From: Balanoglossus misakiensis
Lineage: Eukaryota; Animalia; Hemichordata
Assembly (NCBI GenBank): GCA_040954595.2
Contig: CM082588.2
Location: 3,246,513 to 3,310,512 of the forward strand
DNA: 64,000 bases
Direction: 5' to 3'
Under the pieces are notes generated by a model that saw only the letters and a program-made list of their open reading frames with translations, had not been told where the DNA came from and did no database searches. The translations under genes were made by a program, and so were the position numbers. Within the stretch, counting starts at the first letter, position 1. Every line of letters starts with the position of its first letter. Below are positions 44,001 to 61,731 of this stretch, piece after piece.

Positions 44001-47000
44001 TGCGTGCATTTTGGTGGGTTAGGTGGTGGATGGTTGCATGAGTTGTGGGTTTCTTCATCTCAGCCAAGACAAACTAACAGAAATAATCCATCGTACAATA
44101 TGTCAGTGATTGTCCCCATTGACATCTGTAACAATACATGTTTTGCTTCTTTACTCCACAGCACAAAACGTATAGCTAATGACAAATGAATATTGAAATG
44201 CTGTATTTTTTTTGTCTGTTGCAGAAAGAACAAGAAATAAAGGCACAGAAAATATCAAGTCAAAAGGTAAATACAATGTAACACATAGGTGTGCGAGACC
44301 ATTGCATATCTTGGTATGTTTATCATTGATCATGTGAAGATGTAATTACTAATTGCCTTGAAGATGTTCAGTATTTCCAGCTTTTTTTACAGCTAGTTTA
44401 CAAAAGCGAGGAATACAGCTATGTGATGGCTGTATACACTGTACTTTTGTCACCAAAGGAAATTTTGTATCATTTTGACTGTCCATACATGTAAAGAAGA
44501 AGAACAAGTCAATAACACCTATTTATTTCTATGTGCCTGCCTATGTTGATCTTGCATGTGACAAACACACAGGATAGCGATTCCCGCACAGACAAAGAGT
44601 TGACTGATAATGTCCAACACGACAACAAAATTAATCACGGACGTGATCCACAACCACAGTCTCCCCAAACTGAAAATAAGGTACACACATGGGTTCTGTG
44701 ATTGCAATTGATGCACATTGGTTACAGTACTAACGTTTCCTTTCTCTAATACTGATCACCACCAAATCATGGTTACAGAAACCAGATTGGGCAATTGTTT
44801 TCATGAATGACAAAGTTTGTCTTGTCACGATGATCTCGATGGTTTGTATCAGTGTATGTGTGTACTGAGCACGTGTTAGAGATGGCACTGAATATCCCCG
44901 CAATGGGTGTTTTGTAAACACTGAATAACTCAGCAATATCTTACCTTTCACTGCACTGCCAGACTGAGGGCGATAAGCAGGAGTTGTTAGCAAGCTGGGA
45001 TTCTGATGGAAGTAGTGATGGTGGTGGTGAGGACGGTCTGGAAAATCTTGAGGAATCTGATGAGGTAGAATAGAGAAATACAAAATAAAATGTGGCTTTT
45101 TTTTGTCTGTCTTTGTTTTTGCTCTTATAGTATTTGTGATGTTTCTTGTGATTCTTCTTTGCATGGTGTCTCAATGTCCGATTTTTTGCTGTCCTGTCTA
45201 TCTTCTCTGTCTTGATTTTCAGTTCTTAGTGTTGAACTTTTTATCTGTCGTTTGCAGTGGTTTTGGAATGGCTGTCAACATCGGCTTTTTGGCGAGGTCG
45301 TGGCAGAATTTATTCCTGTAGTGTGTCAAAATTAGCATTCCTCCACCGAGTGTACTAGATCATTTGAATTGAAATCAAACTCTGCCATGTGTTAGTTCAC
45401 TGTGATTTTCCCATAAACCCATTCATGCTATGAACAATTGACACCATGGAAAAATATATGATGAGGTGTGTAACAGTAACTGCACCAAGAAGTTCGTCAA
45501 TTTTCACTCCAACTTTCTATCATTTCTTTCTGCTTGTTGTTAATGCTGCTTTGTGAAGGTAAAACAATTGAAGGCGGAGTTGAGAATGAAACACGAGTGG
45601 ACTAAAGTTGAGCTTAGTGAATCCCTTAGTAAGGTAGTAATTCAGTGCATGTTGCTATGGTGTAGTCTCTGCAGTTCCTAACTTGTCCTTGTCATTCTCG
45701 ATTGCTAACATTGGCTTTGTGCAGTGTTAAACTAACATTTTTTCTTCTTCCTTTGAACAACAGATCATCAGTGTAATTTTTCATTGCATGTGAACAGGTT
45801 GTGTGTTTTTGAGAGTGGTAGCATAATATCCTACATGTACTGTGGCTGTTACACTATACAAGCAGAAGTGTGGGTAGCGTATACATGTATCATGAAATTA
45901 CATTTGACACACAGACAAAAATACTGGAAAATAGCCTAGAGTTACCCCTTGTGTGACTTTAAACTATACAAGGTCAATAGACTGATTGGTTGACACTCCG
46001 CAACCCTAGAATACATTTTATTGGCCAAGGGTTTATAGATTCAGATGGTATTGCTTCAGTATTGCATCCAACCCCAGCCATTACTAACCCCACCCCACCC
46101 TAACCCATACTTTTTCCCTGCTTTTCTCACTTGCACACGCCCTCCCCCCTCAAAAAAGCTGGAAGATTCAAAGGACAACGAGTCTTCCTCCTCAGAGGAT
46201 GAGGCGGAGAAAACTGATTCCGTGAAAAAGGTGACTGCCGCCAGGGTTTTGGCAGGTAGCAAGAAATCAAAGTCGTCGGACGAGAACAAAGATGATTTGG
46301 GCTCTGAGCACAGCATAGAGGAGACAAAGTTAGATGACAAACTGGAGGTAGTTTACTTTCAATGTGTGTCATCCTGGCCCCAGCTGTGTGTTAATTGTCT
46401 TTCATTGGTCTTTTGGGGCACTTCTGATTGTATGTATTAAAGCAAAACTCGAAAACCACAGCTGGGCGGCCAGTCTAGATGTGCCTTCACTACTAGCATG
46501 TGAAAAGATTTGCTGTGCTTCTAACAACACAACACAACACAACACAACACAACACAACACAACACAACACAACACATGATATGCTTGTGCTGTTCATCAA
46601 TTAACATTGACATATTTCAGAAAATAAAAGTCTTCGTGATATCGAGCCCTAGAAGTTTCATTCCATTTCAGGAGCACATGGTCACTTTATCAGCTGTAAC
46701 AGCAGACGTACCACCTCCGACTCCTAACTCCTTGAGTCTTTCTCTCTTGCCTGTTATTTTTTCTTTGCATGCTAGGAGATTGAGGAGACCAAGATAATAC
46801 CAATCTCTGAAGCCCCGACTGTGGCATCTGAAGCCCCAACCGTGGCCTCGGAAGCCCCTATCACCAAGACTGTCCTTGCATATGACGCCCGTAGCTCCAC
46901 TAGCACTGCTAGTGTTAAATCAACCGAGGTATTAATTAATTGACACCACAGCTAATGCTCCAGACAAGATGATTCACATTATCATACACTAAGTAAAGTC

Positions 47001-50000
47001 TTTGTCATTCTACACATCAGAGACTTCATATTCTGCACCCTGATAATCTCAGATTTCCCAAAAAAGGCAATGGGAATACATAAACACATTGTTTTCATCT
47101 GTAATGTCATGGTATCCAATTGTAAATGTTAACGGTCAATTTCTGTTGAGTTCTGCACCTGACTTGCAAGCGTAATGTAATTTTGCATTTCAATGAAAAA
47201 TCGCTGATCAATGTGGCTGTAAGCGAAATTCTGATGCAAACTATGGAAGTAGGGGCATAGAAGCAGCAATTTTGAAATGTATTCGCTCTTTCTGTGTTTT
47301 GCAATGTCCTCTGTCGCCTGCATTTTTTTGCAAGTCCTTTGCCACCTGCATCAATGATTTTCCTGAAATGAATAATGCTTGCATGTTACGGTTGCTGGAA
47401 ATTGTCGTCACGGAATAAGGGGTAACATAGCGTCTCACTTCATCTGTTCATGCAGTGTTGGTGCTTAAGTGGTTCATAGAAGTTTTGTGTGATCTGTTCT
47501 GACCATTATCTTTGTTACTTTCAGATTTCATCAGCTGCTCAGTGTTGCTGTCCTCAGTGTGTGTTTGTCTCAATTAAAATAAAATCACTTTCATACTGTA
47601 TAAATTAAGCTGCAAGGCTACATGTGTCATTAATTGTGCATTTTCAACTTTCAGTTTCTCCAGAATGTGTGTGTGGCTTTATACATTCTCAGCATCAAAA
47701 GTGTTAATTCAAGGATTCTGCATGACCCATATTTCAATAAAATCTGTCAACAGGAGAAGGAAAAAGAAGAAAAGAAGAAGAAGAAGAAAAAGGAGGACAA
47801 AGGAGAGAGTGATGAAGATGATGATGAAGATGAAGATAGCGAGGATGAGGAGGAAGAGGATTTGGAAAAGTTGGATCCAAAAGAGAGGAGAAGAAGGGAG
47901 AAAGAAAAAGCCAAGAAAGAGAAAGAAAAACGTAAATATGTCTAAAGGGTCGATTGTTTTCAAAATACTTCGGCGCACCGATGAATGTGAGAACACTGTC
48001 TCAGACAATTACTGGAAATTTGGGAATGGTGTGGAGTGTTGTGACTTGTACCTTTAACATAACCATAGGCTATGATCCACAGAAAAACTTGATAGAGGAG
48101 GACTTTTTTCATCTTTGAACAGAGAAACAGTTGGAGAAGGAAAGAAAAGAAAAGGAAAAAGCAGAGAAGGAGAGACTGAAACAAGAGAAGGAAGAAGAGA
48201 AAAAGAGGAAAAAAGAGGAGGAGCTGAAGAAGAAAGAGGAGGAGAAAAAGAAGAAGGAAGAAGAGAAGAAAAGGAAAGAGGCGGAAAAGAAGGGGGTGAA
48301 AGTCAAGAAGATAGATGAATCGGAGGATGAAGATGAAGACGAGGATGAAGATGAGGATGAGGACGAGGATGAGGAGTCTGAGGAGGAAGAGCTGTTGACT
48401 AAGAAAGAGAAGGAGAAGAGAGCCAAGGAGGAGGCCAAGAAAGCCAAGGCCAGGGAGGAAGCTAAGAAGAAAGAGGCGGCAAAGAAGAAAAAGAAAGTGG
48501 AATCAGAGGAGGAAGAGAGCGAGGAGGAGAGTGAGGAAGAAGGTAAGTGATGATGACAGTGATGGGGGGTCTTGACCACTGTGTGACCTTACAGTCTGGT
48601 GTGCCTGTTCGTGTGAATCCATGTTTGACACTACATGTACGAACTCCATGCAAGTTCTTAAGTATATACCTTTACCACGATTCCTAACAACAGAACCCAA
48701 GGCCAAAAGCAAAGACAAAGCTACACTGGACATATTTGGCAAGAAGCAGCCAAAGAAGTCTTCCAAAGTTGACGTCGACGAAGACGACGATGATGAAGAG
48801 TCCGAGGATGAAGAGGAAATCAAAAATAAAGAGAAAGACAAAGAAAAGGCCAAAGAAGCTGAGGTGTCAAAGGTAAATTGTCATGTGATTGCTTGTACTA
48901 CAAAATTTTCATTTTACAAGACTAACGTATACATATGTGAATTATTTTTAAATTTCTGAAACCCAGATTATTTTTGGAAGAGAAAAACTAAGCAAACCAA
49001 ACATACATACATGAACAGTGGAATTAAAAACACGTTGAAAAATCCTCTAATATTTTGAAATCTAGTAAAAGTATGTGCTCTCGCTGGCAAACAAACACTT
49101 CATGTACACATACCGCACATAAGGTACAAACATTGATACATGTGTACTATGTTTATCACACATGAAGTCAACATCGCATTTCCCATCATTGACATGTAAC
49201 AAAGTGCATAACAACCATACATGATATGCATACATCTGTTGTGTATTAACAAAAATCAATAATCACATCGTTTTTTGTATTTTTCTTATCCATTGATCAT
49301 TTTTGTCATCAAAATGTCCCAATATTGCTGCCGTTGTCCATGAGTAAGTGCTTCAACTTGTCTACCTTGTTTTGTTGTTTGTTTTTGTGTGTATGTGTGT
49401 TTATTGCACAAAGTGAACTCACCAGATGTAAACTTTTCAGCACCTCTTTCATGACACTGACTATATCCTAGGGTGGGATGTTTTCCAACACCTAGAAGAG
49501 ATAACATGAAAGCATTTTCCATAAAATATTTGATTTTACTCACCACACATAGAAACTGTCACTCTTCAATTTTTCCTTTGAGGTTATTAACACTCGATCA
49601 CATCACATTCTTGCTCTGAACTCTTCCTCTCTATCCTTCCCTACTCTGATTTACATTAACCCTTTCACCACCATGGTTTGGTCCAAAACTATTGTTTTCT
49701 ATGGCAAAGTTGGACCTCTTTAATAGGGAAATGGAGGTGAAAGGGTTAAAGCCCTGTACTTTTCCAGGAATGTTCTTCCTAGCCTGCACAAGTAACAGTG
49801 CTTTGTATGTAGTGTAGTGTGGCATTATATTGTGGTGTGTTGATTGCAACTTGATATCTGTTATTACTGAGATAAAACTTTCTCGCCTTTATTTCGTCAT
49901 GTGCACAAATCATGAAACATCTTTTCCAGGGAGTGCACTGAGTAAATATAAGAGGCTAGAGTGTGAGTTATGAAATGTTTTGAAGGTCTGATTTGAGAAA

Positions 50001-50147
50001 TAATTGACTGTCGTTTCTCTCCCCTTTCAGTGGAAATTCTGGCAAAAGAACAAAGCTGCAGAAGAGAAGAAGAAGCAGGAAGAACAAGCAAAACAACAAC
50101 AACAGCCGCCGCCCGAACAGAAGAGCAAGACCTGTGTCATCCTCTAG
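38075..50147 (+). CDS. RPGR: Retinitis pigmentosa GTPase regulator orthologue (RCC1-like domain, acidic/charged tail, CaaX), up to ~1082 aa, up to 22 exons
   Basis: RCC1-domain exons 38075-38102, 39726-39851, 40012-40104, 40495-40713, 40938-41087, 41227-41385, 41550-41708, 41861-41985 ([53 protein letters not shown]). Then 42131-42400, 42579-42759 (ARGRRR, RTLPP), 42968-43059; less certain cassettes 43457-43540, 44225-44266, 44573-44680, 44963-45064, 45559-45633, 46159-46347, 46776-46928; then 47754-47931, 48123-48542, 48694-48872 and terminal 50031-50147 ending KSKTCVIL* (human KSCTIL). The 28-nt first coding exon and OTC adjacency support orthology. Confidence 0.92.
40776..40867 (+). mobile_element. 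~92-bp piggyBac-like MITE, copy 1 (RPGR intron 4)
   Basis: TTAACCCTTTCACC...GGTGAAAGGGTTAA terminal inverted repeat including TTAA; internal similarity to three other copies. Confidence 0.75.
43314..43405 (-). mobile_element. piggyBac-like MITE, copy 2 (inverted, degenerate ends; RPGR intron 11)
   Basis: TTAAACCCTTCACCCCCAG...GGACCAAACCATGGTGGTGAAAAGGTAA, the reverse complement of copies 1 and 3. Confidence 0.7.
46526..46575 (+). repeat. (AACAC)n pentanucleotide microsatellite
   Basis: About 10 units in an RPGR intron. Confidence 0.9.
49656..49749 (+). mobile_element. piggyBac-like MITE, copy 3 (RPGR last intron)
   Basis: TTAACCCTTTCACCACCATGGTTTGG...GGTGAAAGGGTTAA. Confidence 0.75.
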
Positions 50148-54550: not shown

Positions 54551-57500
54551 TCAGACTGTACTGAGTTTGACCAGGCCCATGGCACTGTCCTCGGCCAGCG
54601 AGTCGGACTCCTGCGAGATGCTGGTCTTCATGACCGGTCGGACGGGCGGGTGGGCCCCGGGGGGAGGGGGAGACAGCGGGTGCACCACATTGTTTCTGCT
54701 GTTCTCCTCCCCCTCCACCGACGGCAGGTGGTTGATGCTGGGGAACAGCACCGAGGTCTGGCTGACCGGTGTCCGGTCGTTGGCCACGGGCGTGGTCGGG
54801 TCGCTGGCCGGATTCGACGCATCCACGCCTTCCACATTATTGCTTTCCACAGTGGTCACTAAAGTTACATTGGTTTTGCTATTCACATTGTCAGGTTTGA
54901 TTTCTTCATCGTCCTGCGAGGGAGGAGAAAAAAAATTCATTACTTCACCTTCCCTCAGAATGTGACCGCAATGAATTGATGTTCCTCAGGGCTCTACACA
55001 ATGACTAAGGGCTACTCTACAAACAAATGGTAGGGAGGGCAACCATAACACCTGAAGGAGTTAGGGCTACTTGACAATTGATGGGGAGGGATGGCTAATT
55101 TTATCATTTATTGAACATGGTGATCTAGCCAAAACTTGGTAAGTACTGTATATCCTCACTGGGGAAACTACGGACTATGAAGATAGTTAAAGTCACTGTA
55201 ATGTTGATGATATCAGCTGCCCACTGTACGCTGGCGAAATGTCTGAAAAATGATGAGTGGATAGCTATGGCCAAAAGTATGAACTGAAACCGTTAGCCAT
55301 GAAAAACAGACAGCTTAAAAAAATGACAAAATAAAGCTAAAATACTATAATTCCATACAAGCATTGTGCTGATGCATGATACGAACCACACAGAAATGAA
55401 ATCAACGTAAAACTAATGCAATGGACGTGACTACAGCCTACCAATCCATGGTGAGGCACAGTAAAATGCACATTCAATTTTTCAGCAAATGTTTTGTTAT
55501 TTTGCAGTACTGAGTTGATGAGTTAATTGCAGCATGAAGACTTCGAACTAGCGGAGAGGATCAGAATTGAAATCAGACATTCAGGGAGTATTATAATTTT
55601 CATATTTAACAATAAAGAGACTGGCCAGTGGGATACATTACATGGCTTTCAACATAAATGTTAATTTTCTTATTTGCAACAAACAAATCATTCAGGAGGC
55701 CTGTCTTAAGTCAGATATCTTTTTTGAATGCATCTTTTTTCTGATATGCTGCATGGACTGGGGGGGTTGGAGAAACCAAACTGTAGCCACGTCCTGTCAC
55801 GTAAACTAACCTGTGCTAGGGTGGGGGGTTTTACGTACACACAGTTAAAACATCAAGGATTAGATTCAGCAGAGGTTTCATCATGCTGTGAGTCGACTCT
55901 CTCCTACATCCATGCAAAAACACAGCATTGAAATCAAGTCAACATATAAATCAGGAAAAATAAAATATGCACAAGTTCAAAATTAATACACTAATAGTCA
56001 TTACACTAAACAAGTGAGAAATCAATTCACAATATAACAGGAGAGAAAAGGTTAAGGCCCAAGGTTGAATCAGGTGGGAATTTGTATTTCAAAAGGGACA
56101 GTAGATCTTGATAACATTTTCAATATTTTTTATTCAGCGTATCCACTAGCGTTTCTTGTTCTACTGCCCACAGCATCTTGGCGTGCCCAGTGATCAGCTT
56201 GTCATCACAGCCTTTACACACATAACCAGCAAGGGGTGGATATAGCACACTCACCCTTGGCTCTGTGAAGGTCGTCGAGCCGTAATTTTGTGGCGACTGT
56301 TGACTTGAACTTGACGTACTGTCAGGGATGACTATTTCAGGTTGTACAAAACCTCGTCTGTCCATTAGACTGTCCAAATGTAAGAGAGAAAGAAAACACA
56401 AATACGTGGTCAGTCATTCACTATAAAACAGACTGACATTGGCACTAAATGGTGTGTGTGTCTTCGTGTACATTTTTATGTCTCTATGTATCAGTACAGT
56501 TATGGAGTAAGTCTCCAGAGAGGGTAGGGGGAGGAAGGGAAGGGAGGAAAGCGCTGACTGACTGACTGTCTCACCTGACATGCGTAGGCCCACACAGCAC
56601 TGCACAGCAATTCCTACATATCGACCCGTAACTGTACGGGTTGTAATTGTTTTCTCCCCTTTTGGACGACCATGATCCTTTTATCTGTTAAAAAAACACA
56701 CAAAAATATGCTGATTTCATACGATATGAATATTCATCAGCACTAGACCAATCAAGTGATCCCACTGGAACATGTGACATGCTAATGAGTGAATTTGACC
56801 AATGGTGGAGAAGGAAGACAATATTTGTATTCAGCTCATTTGGCCACCACTATATCTCCCCTCCCGTGCAGATGGAGACTTACTTCCTCGTTTGTAGTGC
56901 TGTTATAACAAAGAAGGTAGGAGTGGTAGCCCACCATCCCTATCACTGCCATAAAGGAGAAGACCGCTATAACACCAATGATCACATTGCAAACGAAGTC
57001 AAGGAAATTCACATGCAAACAGGAAGATGTACACAGAATGATTCTATCTATTTCTGGGTCATGGAACAGTGGTGTGTTATCATCATTAAAATAAAATGTT
57101 ATCATGTAATAGGATCTCATCAACTGTAACTTTTGATTATGAGCTTTTAGTATGTTCACTCTGTGTACATCTACAAAGAATTTCTTATTCTACTCCAAAA
57201 CGTACATGGAAACGCAGTGTTTGGCTCGTCAGCATAGTTTCTACATAGTCCGATGCAGTTACTATTGACAACTCAATTGAGGTCTGTGGTCAAAATTGAA
57301 CTGTCAATGTACCACTGCTGGCTGCACATACATATATGTATATGCTGTGCTGACAGGCCAAATGCATTGCATAATTACAAGATTTCTAAGTGGGTAAGAC
57401 CAGCGGCTAAAAACATTCAATCTATTTAATTTCAGAAGCACTGAAAAATTTATTTTCTTAACCTCTTGATGTAATTTTACAGGCCTGGCTGGACAATATA

Positions 57501-60500
57501 CCGTACATGTACATCCTAATATGCGCAGGATGATTGATGAGATGTCAATAATATATTTACTGGCGAAGTCTATTTAATACCCTGCAGCACCTGCTTGTTT
57601 TTTAAATTTTGTTTCCAAATGCCCTTCAGTTTTACTCTTGATTGCTTTTTATATAAGCCTCGCCAGGGTCAAACTCATCAATTTGGGTAAAAATAGCTTT
57701 TATTTATCATACTCTGTAGCATCATTATTAAAACTGTTATGTAACTGATTTTAAAAAATCGGACAGATGTCGAACGACAATGAGAGACCATGCACAACGA
57801 GATACAAAGCAGTGGAAAGAATCAGTAAAGCATGGTCAAGTGGCTTACAAGATACAGCCCTGTAAATCGCTATTTTGCCGCTGAAACCACTTGGCAAGAT
57901 GGCTGATGATGATCATGGTCTATATGCAATGAACCGAGTCAGCAAAGTTTGGTAGACCTTACAATCAATTCACCAGTAAATTTAAGAATGTATGAGACAG
58001 TAAGAGGTGTCTGTGACTTATTAGCAAAGGTCAAATACGAAAGTTGAAATTACAGCGAGATTATAAGCAAGACTGTGTCTGCAATGTAAGGATGAGAGAG
58101 AGAAAAAAAATGGGTTGAGAGAAAAAAAAGTGGAAAAAACAGCTGGAAATGTAACTTACATCTTCGTTTGTGGTTTGGTTAGAAGTGATAAGGTAGGTGT
58201 GAAATCCAGCAAGGCCGAGTACAGACCAGATGGAAACAAAACACACTACAGCCTCCAAGATAGTAATCACGGCTAGTCAAGGAAAAGCAGTGTTTTTTCG
58301 ACTACACAGTTAACACTATGTTGCTGTAGTTACATTTGATACATGTTATGAAAACTGGAAGAGAAATCAGCCCTTGCCCAACACACTCAGTAGACAAGAA
58401 GATTTAATTTTGAGTGGCACACTTGATTATCAAGTAAATGTGTCAGCTTTGCATCAGTTTTTTAACTTTGATAACCTTTGACCCTTGATCTGGTTGGCTT
58501 TCGACTTTGATAGTCAGAGAAGTTAACCTCAGCCAGGGCTGCATTGTGACAAGAGCTGATTCCTTTAAAACGTACATGTAAGCGTAAGTGAATTTATGTA
58601 TATTTTTTGTAAATATGTGTGAGTGTATAATATATATTTGCTTATTAAGCAAAGCATTTGCAGGAAATTAACAGATTTAAAGCGAGAGAGAGGGAAAAAA
58701 AGGATAAAGCATGACTCGTCTACGAGGAGATCTACATGGTTAGTATAAAAAGAAAGTTACAGACGGCAGTCAAGCTTCTCAATGTCAGAATGGATTCAGC
58801 AAATTGTTGCAAGCAAAATGAACGTACAATAAATGCCATCATCGGTAACATCATAATGCAGATTTTGATACAACATTATAGATTGATGTTGACATGACTA
58901 ATGTTACATTTTCTCACAACTGAAACATTTTCACCCTCTAAATTGGTCCGTCAGCAAAGAAAACAGAGTATGATAATTTGCCATGTGTAATTATATAAAT
59001 AAACCTGAATGGTTTCACAATCATCATGTCAGAGGAGAATTCTTTCTGACCCTTCTTATGCACTCCTCCTCACGACCCAGTTGTCAGCACTATCATAAGC
59101 ACCAACAAAACATCACTGTGTCGTACAAGCACTCCATAAACCCTGCAGCATGTAACAGGCACGTGAGAAAGGATGGATTCCTGTTATCAGAGTTTTGACA
59201 ATGGCAGTACCAGGGTTAGTAACAAACCATTGTGATTTGCGGGAGGCAGGGATGAATACACGACTAAATACTTCCTGTTGAACGTCAACATAAAAGAAAC
59301 TGATCAATGGGACAGTAGCTGAACATCCCCCCCCCCCCCCTACATTTCAGTTTGCGTACCAGCTACCAAGTTTTTCAGTTCGAAGAATTGGGATATAATA
59401 CTAAGATCATGAACACACGGCCCATGTATATTGCATACATGTATAAACAGGTTCAAAATTAAATTGATTATGCATAAAAAAAGTGCATAAAATGGAAAAA
59501 AGTAGCTTTATTTGAACAGAAAAAAACAAGAACTCACATCTTCATTTGTAGTTAAGGCTGTGGCTGTAAGATATGTGTGAAAGCCAGCTAGTGCCAAGAT
59601 GGACCAAATTGAGAAGAAACAGATAAAGATTACTATAATAGTGAGAACTAAACGTTAAGGAAGATGATAAAAAAATACCAATGAATGCTTGCTATAAATA
59701 AGAATTAATTGTGGATAGTTGCAACATGCATGGTGCTACTAATCAGGGTTCAAACAGACTGGAACAGAAGTTAAATAATAATAAGAAAAATTGTGAGGAT
59801 TTTTGTGCAAGAGGGTGAGATGACTTTCTTATCTTGCTTTGCTGGTGTTTTTCTCATCCAAGTCAAACTACAGAAATGTACATGTTTTATTTATTTATTT
59901 ATCTTAGTGACTACACGAGTCCAATGCTCTATTTCAGCATTATTGACTTGGGATTGATTCGCAAAATGCAGGTGCATAAAGGATCCTACGTGTTACCAAT
60001 GCATGCATAAGAAACTTAATAAGTAACAAAAAGTTGAAGTGCATGTATTTTAAATGATTCAACTGTTCACTGGGACACTACATGTTCCAGCGATAAATCT
60101 TTATCTATAGAAAGTATTTGATATTGTCCCTTCCAGGAAACAAAGTTAAAATACGGAAAATGTTACCCAAGTCTGTTCCATTCGGCCTCTCAAATGCATT
60201 ACACAATGTGTGCCAGGCAAAATAGAAAATAAAGTATGCAATGTTGTAATTTTCGTTTATAAAAACATTAGGGACTGTTAATTGTAATGCATACACTGGG
60301 GAAATTTGACTAACACTGCATTGAATCGCAATCCACATTAAATGCCACACACACAAGACACACAAACACATTAATTAAAAACAACCCAAGTGATAATTGG
60401 TTGCTGTAAACAAAAGGATATCTAGCAGGTGTTTCCTTCATGGCATCCAGGAAGCTTCCCAACTCATTCGTTACTGAAATAAAAGGGAAAAAGAGAAAGT

Positions 60501-61731
60501 GATTCATCTTGTGAGTGAAGTGTCATGCCATGTGGTAAAGGCAAAAATCATGTTGTATCTGTACACTATGATTTTTACCACACTTCATATGTGAGTATGT
60601 AAACACAAGAAGTCAGCCTGCCTCAGCATCAAGAAATTCATGAAAGGAGGTAAATTAATGAAGACACAATATACTTACATAAGATAAGGTGAGTTATGAC
60701 ACAGGCGAATACAAAAACACACAGGAATGCTAGGGACAATATAAACATGTAAAAATATCTGTAGTTTCTTTTCCCAACGCAGTTACCAACCCACGGACAG
60801 TGGTGATCGAACCTCTCTGCAAATGGAAAGAAGAATACATGTAGTGTGAAAAATGGCTGTAATGGTAAGACAAATGGAAGATAATCTATATTATCTCATG
60901 TGCGCAGAAATGACAAGGTACCCCCACACTATGTGTCAAAAAAGACAACTTACCAACACAATTATCACAAATACTACAGTGTGATGCTCTTGGAGGGCGA
61001 AAAATCTTGCATGTAAAACAGTATTTGAGTTTGACAGTTTGTCCATTTATTACTACTTCTTTAACTCGGGGCGGTGGTCTGTATGTGGGATTATTTGGGT
61101 TAGGTACCTCTGTGAAATGAAGAAACAAAATGGTTAGTAAGTGTGTAGATTATCGCAGTAAAATATACAATACAGCCAGAGCCTCTCAAAAGGCAATGGT
61201 ATTGACGTAGCTGCAATGCATAAGTAAAGCTCTTATCATTCTTGAGTGTGTACTTTTGCCTTAACCTTTACCACTCGCAGACAAATGTTAGAAATGGGCT
61301 ATTTTCTATATTCATAAGAAATGTAGTGTCTTTCCTGATTCATTGTATATGATAACGCAACAAACGACACAATTTGAATTCAATTTTCTCAGAAATGCAG
61401 GAAATTACCAAGCTTATGTAATCGGTGATTGGTAATTTTGTTCAATAATGGATTCAGATATCAAACAGCTCTGCTCATGAATGCCTAAGACCTCTGTCTA
61501 CAAAAAACTCAGCACATCAGTAAGATAGGTACCTCTGCCATGGCATCTGCACTACACAAGACTCACTCACCTATTTGTTTCTCTATATCTGCAGCTTCAT
61601 CCGGCGTCGCCCTGGGGATGACCCCGGGGTCGCTGAAACTGGTGCGAAGCAGCGCAGCCATCACAAAGAAAAATAACAGGAAAGCTATCACGGGTATGGC
61701 CCAGGTGAGATTTGTTGCAAGGTATGGACAA
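54551..61731 (-). CDS. ZDHHC14: DHHC palmitoyltransferase, ZDHHC9/14/18 (Erf2/approximated) subfamily, most like ZDHHC14; first coding exon lies beyond the window
   Basis: Exons 61731-61571, 61109-60954, 60816-60679, 60473-60422, [one of 59640-59538 / 58262-58160 / 56986-56884], 56684-56575, 56369-56255, 54913-54551. Motifs [84 protein letters not shown]-terminal GLVKLSTV (PDZ-binding; human ZDHHC14 ends LVKLSSV). Confidence 0.92.
56884..56986 (-). CDS. ZDHHC14 mutually exclusive exon C (divergent; AA acceptor)
   Basis: U12 branch TTCCTTGAC 57006-56998, inferred AA acceptor 11 nt later, 103 nt encoding (S)[35 protein letters not shown]2 donor GTAAGT. Confidence 0.78.
58160..58262 (-). CDS. 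ZDHHC14 mutually exclusive exon B (closest to the vertebrate sequence)
   Basis: U12 branch TTCCTTGAC 58284-58276, AC acceptor 13 nt later, 103 nt encoding (S)[35 protein letters not shown]2 donor GTAAGT. Confidence 0.92.
59538..59640 (-). CDS. ZDHHC14 mutually exclusive exon A (TM4 + TTxE)
   Basis: U12 branch TTCCTTAAC 59662-59654, AC acceptor 13 nt later, 103 nt encoding (S)[35 protein letters not shown]2 donor GTGAGT. Confidence 0.85.
60412..60421 (-). other. U12-type (AT-AC class) 5' splice site
   Basis: CCTGCTAG|ATATCCTTTT matches the U12 donor consensus RTATCCTT; no GT donor fits the protein homology here. Confidence 0.92.

What the first reader, a model, noticed from the sequence alone, without database searches (positions are those of the whole stretch)
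56884..60421. Three-way mutually exclusive exon switch in ZDHHC14 enforced by minor/major spliceosome incompatibility
Seen: one U12 donor (AG|ATATCCTTTT, 60421) is followed by three paralogous exons of exactly 103 nt (59640-59538, 58262-58160, 56986-56884). Each has a U12 branch point (TTCCTTAAC/TTCCTTGAC) 11-13 nt before a non-AG acceptor and ends in a strong U2 donor (GTGAGT/GTAAGT); the common downstream exon (56684) has an ordinary U2 AG acceptor. Established: U2 donors do not normally splice to U12 acceptors, the logic described for the two-exon vertebrate JNK (MAPK8/9/10) cluster. Inference: A-B, A-C, B-C joining and skipping all three are blocked. A frame lock adds to this, since each exon is 3n+1 (phase 2 in, phase 0 out). 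Exon choice would be a competition among three minor-spliceosome 3' sites. I know of no description of a three-way U12 acceptor array in a DHHC gene, but cannot search to confirm novelty.
Basis: partly seen in the sequence, partly recalled or inferred. Interest (0 to 1): 0.93.

Follow-up and report, generated by a model that had tools for sequence, protein, structure and literature searches.

The report
Three-way exon switch behind minor intron
An acorn-worm gene for a fat-attaching enzyme carries three diverged copies of one exon, each behind a rare minor-spliceosome splice site, and related acorn worms are annotated with three protein versions using one copy each; the mismatch of splicing machineries likely forces this one-of-three choice, a lock so far described only for exon pairs in the mirror-image layout.

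Summary
One U12 donor (60421) precedes three paralogous 103-nt exons. Each has a consensus U12 branch point 11-13 nt before an AC, AC or AA acceptor and ends in a U2 donor. The gene is the single ZDHHC9/14/18 (App/Erf2) gene of an acorn worm close to Ptychodera flava. The exon encodes TM4 and the TTxE motif.

RefSeq models of P. flava and Glandiceps talaboti each list three isoforms that match A, B and C one-to-one. None of 309 fetched proteins carries two copies. The AT-AC intron is old: 49 of 80 metagenome loci have it before a single exon. Swapped versions of this segment are also annotated in mussel (three), chiton, a nemertean and Owenia. This scan noted a two-exon octopus version earlier (unchecked).

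Exclusivity most likely comes from U2/U12 incompatibility, backed by frameshift and decay. That step is inferred: no RNA run was listed. One paper limits this mechanism to exactly two exons. Ten paper searches found no description of this case. New variant of a known kind.

The parts
61571..61731 (-). Constitutive coding exon (TM1 end, TM2, DPG motif). Earlier exons lie beyond the window end.
   Evidence: tblastn of hemichordate proteins; AG/GT borders
60954..61109 (-). Constitutive exon, first part of the cysteine-rich domain
60679..60816 (-). Constitutive exon with the DHHC motif and TM3
   Evidence: 98-100% identical to three hemichordate proteins
60422..60473 (-). 52-nt constitutive exon (TM3-TM4 loop), ends in phase 2
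60413..60421 (-). Single U12-type 5' splice site, ATATCCTTT
   Evidence: only RTATCCTTT match in the window; same position in 38 related loci
59654..59662 (-). U12 branch point of exon A, 13 nt before an AC acceptor
59538..59640 (-). Alternative exon A (TM4 + TTxE), U2 donor GTGAGT
   Evidence: 31/34 aa to P. flava X1, 25/34 to G. talaboti X3, 25/34 to the newer Saccoglossus model
58263..59537 (-). Hybrid intron A-B: U2 donor at its start, U12 branch point and AC at its end
   Evidence: sequence
58276..58284 (-). U12 branch point of exon B, 13 nt before an AC acceptor
58160..58262 (-). Alternative exon B, the ancestral-type copy, U2 donor GTAAGT
   Evidence: 33/34 aa to P. flava X2 and G. talaboti X2; 27-29/34 to amphioxus, starfish and vertebrate single exons
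56987..58159 (-). Hybrid intron B-C: U2 donor at its start, U12 branch point and AA at its end
   Evidence: sequence
56998..57006 (-). U12 branch point of exon C, 11 nt before a non-canonical AA acceptor
   Evidence: AT-AA is a recorded rare U12 subtype (PMC1557818 Table 2)
56884..56986 (-). Alternative exon C, most diverged copy, U2 donor GTAAGT
   Evidence: 29/34 aa to P. flava X3, 27/34 to G. talaboti X1, 12-13/34 to A and B
56575..56684 (-). Common downstream exon D, ordinary U2 acceptor, phase 0
56255..56369 (-). Constitutive exon E
54551..54913 (-). Last coding exon with the stop codon

Best explanation
The TM4-TTxE exon of this acorn-worm ZDHHC9/14/18 gene is present in three copies, each with its own U12 branch point, non-AG acceptor and U2 donor, and the mismatch between U2 donors and U12 acceptors likely allows only one copy per mature mRNA, which would give three enzyme versions that differ in one membrane helix. 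Shown by sequence: the anatomy; every single-exon product is in frame; every zero-, two- or three-exon product hits an early stop. Shown by annotation in relatives: three one-exon isoforms. Inferred: the exon was duplicated together with the 3' end of an ancient AT-AC intron, so each copy was born locked. The introns between copies (GT...AC, GT...AA) cannot be removed by either spliceosome, and AT...AG skipping to exon D is disfavoured. One exon is defined by a U12 complex at its front and U1 at its back. Because U12 splicing tends to be slower, the U2 donor-to-D step may commit first. Leaks are removed by frameshift and nonsense-mediated decay. Inferred for function: swapping TM4 retunes the acyl-chain cavity or helix packing, most strongly in version C.
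For: Anatomy. P. flava X1/X2/X3 match A/B/C and are identical outside the 34 residues. G. talaboti X3/X2/X1 match A/B/C, with identical N-parts and the first 60 residues of the C-part identical. All six join at ...PAS, the product of the AT-AC/AA junction. 0 of 309 stored proteins with the segment carry two copies. All 5 non-single combinations (0, 2 or 3 exons) stop 221-347 nt upstream of the last junction. The intron is ancient: 49 of 80 metagenome loci have a U12 branch point and acceptor directly before the exon (48 AC, 1 AG), and 38 of these 49 show the donor. Steric blocking is excluded: 1253 and 1153 nt from donor to next branch point. PMC3584512 says AT-AG and GT-AC combinations are disfavoured, gives an optimal branch-to-acceptor distance of 11-13 nt, and speaks of general U2/U12 incompatibility. 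In the predicted model, helix 227-255 and the TTxE motif fall in the exon's residues 230-263. TM1-4 form the acyl cavity and TTxE contacts the DHHC domain (PMC8059564).
Against: No read of this species was seen, so none of the three junctions is directly observed here. The frame lock alone would also hide co-inclusion from protein databases, so 0 of 309 does not isolate incompatibility. U2 donors can use the 3' end of a U12 intron in some cases (CENATAC, MAPK12, WDFY1). Cryptic AGs lie near the exons: AG at -10 of exon B follows 14/20 pyrimidines (out of frame), and AG at +10 in B would be in frame after A (11/20 pyrimidines; real U2 acceptors here have 15-19/20). The structure model is weak overall (mean pLDDT 54.7), though 81-92 across residues 231-250. 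No functional difference between isoforms was tested.
Confidence: 0.72

Rival explanations
1. The three exons are real alternatives, but exclusivity comes mainly from frameshift and nonsense-mediated decay (or regulatory proteins); co-inclusion happens through cryptic AG sites and is cleared afterwards, and the U12 sites are just inherited.
For: Each exon is 3n+1 and all 5 non-single combinations stop more than 200 nt before the last junction. Pyrimidine-rich U12 branch regions with a nearby AG exist before A and B. 60% of human clusters have lengths not divisible by three (PMC5740500). Shared 3' sites between spliceosomes are documented.
Against: The true acceptors are AC, AC and AA, which a GT donor disfavours. 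Exon C has no AG between -57 and +20, and the flanking AGs have only 9-10/20 pyrimidines. All three consensus U12 branch points are intact although third codon positions are near saturation.
Confidence: 0.17
2. Competing RNA pairings (a docking site and selectors, as in Dscam) choose the exon and enforce exclusivity.
For: A purine-rich stretch near 59100-59060 is the best partner of the acceptor regions of both A (-28 kcal/mol) and B (-26). 0 of 40 intron shuffles reach these values. For A, 2 of 500 query shuffles do.
Against: Unrelated U2 acceptors pair with the same intron at -16 to -30 kcal/mol, two of seven as strongly as A, so base composition can explain it. B (34/500) and C (179/500) are not unusual. 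A was the best of 12 comparisons. No element pairs with all three exons among the 25 longest of 52 inverted repeats shown. No orthologous intron DNA was available to test covariation.
Confidence: 0.07
3. Only exon B is used; A and C are decaying duplicates that gene predictors turned into isoforms.
For: B is the ancestral type. No RNA read of this species was examined. RefSeq XP models are predictions.
Against: A and C have one-to-one orthologs at 25-31/34 and 27-29/34 residues in other acorn worms, against 83-92% identity over the whole modelled protein. Both are open, of exact length, with intact splice signals. Codon-position bias shows selection. The newer Saccoglossus model uses an A-type exon.
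Confidence: 0.04

Closest known systems
Vertebrate JNK (MAPK8/9/10) exons 6a/6b with a U2-U12 hybrid intron (PMC1874599, PMC3584512, PMC8329584)
   Same: Duplicated exons next to a U12 intron, separated by a hybrid intron that neither spliceosome removes; one exon per mRNA.
   Different: JNK has two exons with U2 acceptors and U12 donors (hybrid: U12 5' end, U2 3' end). Here there are three exons with U12 acceptors and U2 donors (hybrid: U2 5' end, U12 3' end), AT-AC/AT-AA termini, and an added frame lock.
TMEM87A/B exons 11/11a (PMC6717393, PMC8329584)
   Same: Mutually exclusive exons of equal length around a minor intron.
   Different: Same orientation as JNK, two exons, 72 nt (frame-neutral).
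ZDHHC9/14/18 - Drosophila App - yeast Erf2 palmitoyltransferases (Pfam PF01529; PDB 8HF3)
   Same: Same domain, motifs and exon border; the U12 intron before the TM4 exon is shared with many animals.
   Different: Fetched vertebrate, amphioxus, starfish, priapulid and arthropod proteins show one version of the segment per gene; fly App isoforms differ in the C-terminal tail (PMC13104975).
NALCN exon 15a/15b in lophotrochozoans and hemichordates (PMC3557258)
   Same: A duplicated exon for a functional membrane segment, kept in molluscs, annelids and hemichordates and lost in chordates: a similar distribution.
   Different: Two exons; the passages seen do not link them to a U12 intron; present in echinoderms.
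Earlier scan note e1-8671014 (octopus ZDHHC14-like gene; unchecked AI note)
   Same: Same gene family, same exon, same proposed lock.
   Different: Two copies there; three here, in a deuterostome, one with an AT-AA intron.

Membership tests
U12-type intron | 5' splice site RTATCCTTT | tested here: met
   ATATCCTTT at 60421-60413, the only match in the window
U12-type intron | Branch point TTCCTTRAC close to the 3' end (optimum 11-13 nt) | tested here: met
   three matches ending 13, 13 and 11 nt before the exons; optimum from PMC3584512
U12-type intron | Position conserved as U12 in orthologs | tested here: met
   49 of 80 loci with U12 acceptor at this exon; 38 of the 49 with the donor
U12-type intron | Removal depends on U11/U12/U4atac/U6atac | not testable with these tools
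   needs knockdown; no genome held to look for the snRNA genes
Mutually exclusive exon cluster | Tandem homologous exons of like length and phase | tested here: met
   3 x 103 nt, 51-63 of 103 nt identical
Mutually exclusive exon cluster | Each exon used alone in a full-length product | tested here: met
   annotated isoforms of P. flava and G. talaboti; predicted models of relatives, not reads of this species
Mutually exclusive exon cluster | No exon-joining or skipping reads | not testable with these tools
   no RNA holder listed; 0 of 309 proteins with two segments is indirect
JNK/TMEM87-type spliceosome-incompatibility cluster | Hybrid intron between the alternative exons | tested here: met
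   GT...U12 branch point-AC and GT...U12 branch point-AA
JNK/TMEM87-type spliceosome-incompatibility cluster | U2 acceptors and U12 donors on the alternative exons | tested here: not met
   opposite orientation
JNK/TMEM87-type spliceosome-incompatibility cluster | Exactly two exons | tested here: not met
   three exons; limit stated in PMC6071210
ZDHHC9/14/18 (App/Erf2) palmitoyltransferase | DHHC domain with DPG, DHHC and TTxE motifs and four TM helices | tested here: met
   PF01529 at E 4e-38 to 6e-37 for the three P. flava isoforms; helices in the model; window isoforms 90-92% identical to them over 398 aa
ZDHHC9/14/18 (App/Erf2) palmitoyltransferase | Closest to ZDHHC9/14/18 among DHHC paralogs | tested here: met
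   PDB search: ZDHHC9 E 5e-134, ZDHHC5 2e-56, DHHC20 2e-27; top hits named ZDHHC14/18/9
ZDHHC9/14/18 (App/Erf2) palmitoyltransferase | Enzyme activity and dependence on GOLGA7/Erf4 | not tested
   no assay; no complex prediction run
Docking-site/selector (Dscam-type) cluster | One conserved element pairing with a selector at every exon | tested here: inconclusive
   one purine-rich stretch pairs with A and B regions, but controls pair as well; no orthologous introns

The most novel reading that the evidence does not exclude
The minor spliceosome chooses, in a regulated way, among three or more of its own 3' splice sites. An exon that follows an AT-AC intron is an expandable cassette: each duplication is exclusive from birth with no RNA-structure code. 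In ZDHHC9/14/18 this cassette dates from the bilaterian ancestor or has been re-invented in acorn worms, molluscs, nemerteans and annelids, and it swaps the helix that lines the acyl-chain cavity, so that minor-spliceosome activity tunes the lipid or substrate preference of a palmitoyltransferase by tissue.
Probability: 0.35. Interest if true: 0.82.

Novelty: new variant of a known kind. Interest (0 to 1): 0.62.

Why it matters
Reviews describe alternative splicing of U12 introns as almost absent and doubt that alternative U12 3' sites are regulated (PMC3584512). One paper states that spliceosome incompatibility is limited to clusters of exactly two exons (PMC6071210). A conserved three-exon array with competing U12 acceptors contradicts that stated limit and supplies the mirror image of the JNK layout. 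It gives a compact (3.9 kb) natural minigene for asking how the U11/U12 particle picks among branch points 0.8, 2.2 and 3.4 kb away, how AT-AC competes with AT-AA, and how exon definition works between a U12 acceptor and a U2 donor. It also offers natural TM4 swaps for studying acyl-chain and substrate choice in the ZDHHC9/14/18 subfamily. The principle of the lock is known, and the isoforms already sit unremarked in public annotation, which caps the surprise.

Tried and rejected
No genome is held for this window. The RNA-run search gave no RNA holder listed, so no reads could be laid; this is no evidence either way.

A region-limited protein search with the C-type segment found only the two known acorn-worm proteins among 22 candidates.

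No second exon copy was found in any of 80 metagenome loci. These loci are redundant (13 distinct peptides among 48 loci), were found with B-type patterns and are unnamed, so they show the single-exon state, not the absence of arrays elsewhere.

A tree of 35 segments of 34 residues could not date the duplications. Only 2 of 31 inner branches were starred. The three acorn-worm C exons form one of them (95/92). Their grouping with the two Owenia exons (89/89) involves long branches and is not trusted.

Steric hindrance was rejected. A docking-site model was not supported. Alternative GT donors near 60421 are weak (GTTTAC, GTTGTT, GTTTTT).

Literature: ten searches gave no paper on this array. 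The library lacks most subscription journals. The five human U2/U12 clusters of PMC5740500 are in an Appendix too large to read, so a human case in this orientation cannot be excluded. Its 10 readable supplements, including the 1,400-row exon tables, hold no ZDHHC9, ZDHHC14, ZDHHC18 or U12. Scan look-ups by sequence and by relatives returned nothing.
Full report
1. Observation. A 52-nt exon (60473-60422) ends in AG and is followed by ATATCCTTTT. Three 103-nt exons follow: A 59640-59538, B 58262-58160 and C 56986-56884. Each is preceded by TTCCTTRAC ending 13, 13 and 11 nt upstream, and by an AC, AC or AA acceptor. Each is followed by GTGAGT or GTAAGT. Exon D (56684) has an ordinary T-rich AG acceptor. 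The motif counts alone are near chance (3 against 1.16 expected, 11 of 100 shuffles reach 3; 1 against 1.13). The placement is not: every branch-point match in 64 kb sits in front of one of the three paralogs. The three exons share 21, 12 and 13 of 34 residues, and identity by codon position runs 2 > 1 > 3.

2. What the gene is. The DHHC exon is 98-100% identical to proteins of Saccoglossus kowalevskii, Glandiceps talaboti and Ptychodera flava. The modelled 398 residues are 90-92% identical to P. flava and 84-87% to G. talaboti. The window therefore comes from an acorn worm close to Ptychodera (inference). The best solved relative is human ZDHHC9 (E 5e-134), far ahead of ZDHHC5 and DHHC20, and database names run ZDHHC9/14/18/app. 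It is the single invertebrate co-ortholog of that subfamily, not ZDHHC14 in particular. The first residues are encoded outside the window (no hit for residues 1-48). In an AlphaFold2 model of the P. flava C isoform (weak overall, mean pLDDT 54.7; 81-92 over residues 231-250), the exon's residues 230-263 cover helix 227-255 and the TTxE motif.

3. All three exons are conserved and annotated as alternatives. P. flava isoforms X1, X2 and X3 carry A-, B- and C-type segments (31, 33 and 29 of 34 residues identical to the window exons) and are identical elsewhere. G. talaboti X3, X2 and X1 do the same (25, 33, 27 of 34). The older Saccoglossus model has B (32 of 34) and the newer one an A-type exon (25 of 34); no C-type was seen among its 3 cluster members. 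All six Ptychodera and Glandiceps isoforms join at Pro-Ala-Ser, the product of the U12 junction. None of 309 stored proteins with this segment has two copies. These are predicted models. That such isoform sets normally rest on aligned transcripts is my own knowledge, not a call result. No RNA run was listed for the window.

4. The intron is ancient; the array is patchy. Of 80 unnamed metagenome loci, 49 have a U12 branch point and acceptor directly before the exon (48 AC, 1 AG). 38 of the 49 also show the donor (37 ATATCCT, 1 GTATCCT). 13 lack the upstream intron but keep the downstream GT, and 18 are joined on both sides. None has a second copy. The set is redundant and was found with B-type patterns. 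Six gene models (a tick, amphioxus, a bird, a starfish twice, elephant shark) read Pro-Ala-Arg-Tyr-Pro at this spot, which is what translation into ATATCCT gives (inference). Among 301 proteins sorted into 186 groups by identical flanks, 44 groups have more than one protein and 9 have more than one segment. Three of the 9 are single-residue differences. Six are true swaps: Glandiceps (3), Ptychodera (3), Mytilus (3), Liolophura (2), Lineus (2), Owenia (2). Fetched amphioxus, starfish, vertebrate, priapulid and arthropod proteins show one version each, within the limits of cluster look-ups that list at most 15 members. Fly App isoforms differ in their C-terminal tails (PMC13104975, passages). 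I did not see genomic DNA of the lophotrochozoan arrays. An earlier unchecked note of this scan reports two copies behind a minor intron in an octopus (e1-8671014). I read it after reaching the same view; the isoform part agrees with my calls. A 34-column tree cannot tell one origin from several.

5. Mechanism. Shown in silico: each single-exon mRNA is open to the natural stop, while skipping all three, any pair and the triple stop 221-347 nt before the last junction. Established: U2 and U12 sites are generally incompatible, GT-AC and AT-AG pairings are disfavoured, and 11-13 nt is the optimal branch-to-acceptor distance (PMC3584512, sections 4 and 13). Inferred: duplication of the exon with about 25 nt of upstream U12 signals and its U2 donor creates hybrid introns (GT...AC, GT...AA) that cannot be spliced, so any number of copies is exclusive from birth. 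The non-AG ends matter, because a U2 donor has been seen to use the 3' end of a U12 intron (WDFY1, whose intron ends in AG, PMC1874599 part 3; CENATAC and MAPK12, PMC8329584 section 7). The lock forbids wrong joins but does not choose. Two choices must agree: which acceptor the U12 donor takes and which donor exon D takes. If B's donor joins D and the U12 donor takes A, a hybrid intron is stranded. Exon definition across a single exon is therefore needed (inference; such cross-spliceosome definition is proposed for JNK and TMEM87). U12 introns are spliced less efficiently (PMC2952598, start of abstract in the listing), so the U2 step may commit first. Possible leaks exist: cryptic AGs at -7 of A and -10 of B are out of frame, and one at +10 of B would be in frame after A but has a poor pyrimidine tract. 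Steric blocking is excluded by distances above 1.1 kb. RNA pairing is not supported: a purine-rich stretch near 59100-59060 pairs with the A and B acceptor regions, but control acceptors reach similar energies in the same intron.

6. Likely function. TM1-4 enclose the acyl chain and cavity residues set chain-length choice; TTxE contacts the DHHC domain; the PaCCT motif and an amphipathic helix pack on TM3 and TM4 (PMC8059564, passages; PMC8227752, passages). All three copies keep Gly19, His21, Tyr23, Leu24 and TTNE (segment numbering). The three C orthologs all change residues that are nearly fixed in 89 ordinary segments: Cys7 to Ala (Cys in 85 of 89), Phe8 to Val (88), Trp12 to Met (89), Phe20 to Tyr (89) and Asp34 to Glu (89). 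The four A orthologs replace Gly16 (86 of 89) by Ala or Thr and Gln29 by Leu. These shared changes suggest distinct, selected properties. Whether they alter acyl-chain preference, partner binding, substrate or localisation is untested.

7. Comparison with what is known. JNK 6a/6b and TMEM87 11/11a are locked by a hybrid intron with a U12 5' end and a U2 3' end (PMC1874599 parts 2-3 of 5; PMC8329584; PMC6717393, passages). This cluster works like them but fails two of their defining features: orientation and number. PMC6071210 (passages) says the mechanism is limited to clusters of exactly two exons. PMC5740500 (passages) counts five human U2/U12 clusters among 629; their names are in an Appendix I could not read, and its 10 readable supplements do not mention ZDHHC9/14/18. 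AT-AA is a recorded rare subtype (8 cases, PMC1557818 table). PMC2831892 (passages) mentions only ZDHHC8 among DHHC genes. PMC10853781, PMC11347168 and PMC6259924 (passages) added nothing on this case. PMC3557258 (passages) shows a similar phylogenetic pattern for NALCN exon 15. Ten searches found no description of a U12-acceptor array or of alternative TM4 exons in this gene; the library omits most subscription journals.

8. Verdict. The feature is real, conserved and very probably a three-way mutually exclusive cluster (about 0.93). U2/U12 incompatibility as the main lock is the best explanation (0.72), with frameshift decay as backup or main rival (0.17). It is a new variant of a known kind: mirror orientation, three members, one AT-AA acceptor, and parallels in several invertebrate phyla. 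Interest 0.62.

Noticed in passing
window 59102-59058 (minus strand, intron A-B): Purine-rich stretch (GAGGAGGAG...AAGAAGGG) that is the best pairing partner of the A and B acceptor regions. It could be a splicing enhancer or a masking element, but controls pair as well.
   Followed up: partly
window 59338-59325 (minus strand): A run of 14 G in intron A-B; possible hnRNP H/F site or G-quadruplex (recalled, not tested).
   Followed up: no
window 56977-57000 with 58071-58087 and 60234-60251: The acceptor region of exon C is one arm of two imperfect inverted repeats; not beyond shuffles (4 of 40 and 34 of 40).
   Followed up: partly
L001:934-1082: The same intron is GT-AG U12 subtype here, while 48 other loci end in AC: a subtype switch.
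   Followed up: no
L016, L018, L025, L051-L054, L056, L058, L063, L066, L075: Loci without the U12 intron before the exon but with the downstream GT intron, which points to loss of the minor intron in some lineages.
   Followed up: partly
proteins P0306, P0307 (Patiria miniata X1, X3): A 12-residue insertion starting Arg-Tyr-Pro at the U12 donor and ending in Pro-Ile-Ala-Ser suggests a second donor 36 nt downstream, or a mis-prediction.
   Followed up: no
window about 44900-50140, plus strand: A convergent neighbouring gene with Lys/Glu/Asp-rich low-complexity exons (for example 48130-48560, 48690-48870, 50030-50140) ends close to the 3' end of the DHHC gene.
   Followed up: no
window 32690 (minus strand): An ATATCCTTA U12-donor-like motif elsewhere in the window; context not examined.
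   Followed up: no
proteins P0144 (Lineus), P0048 (Tubulanus), P0091 and P0317 (Owenia): Strongly diverged versions of the segment; both Owenia versions end in TTNEE like exon C, and no B-type Owenia version was among the 2 cluster members, so a third exon may exist there.
   Followed up: partly
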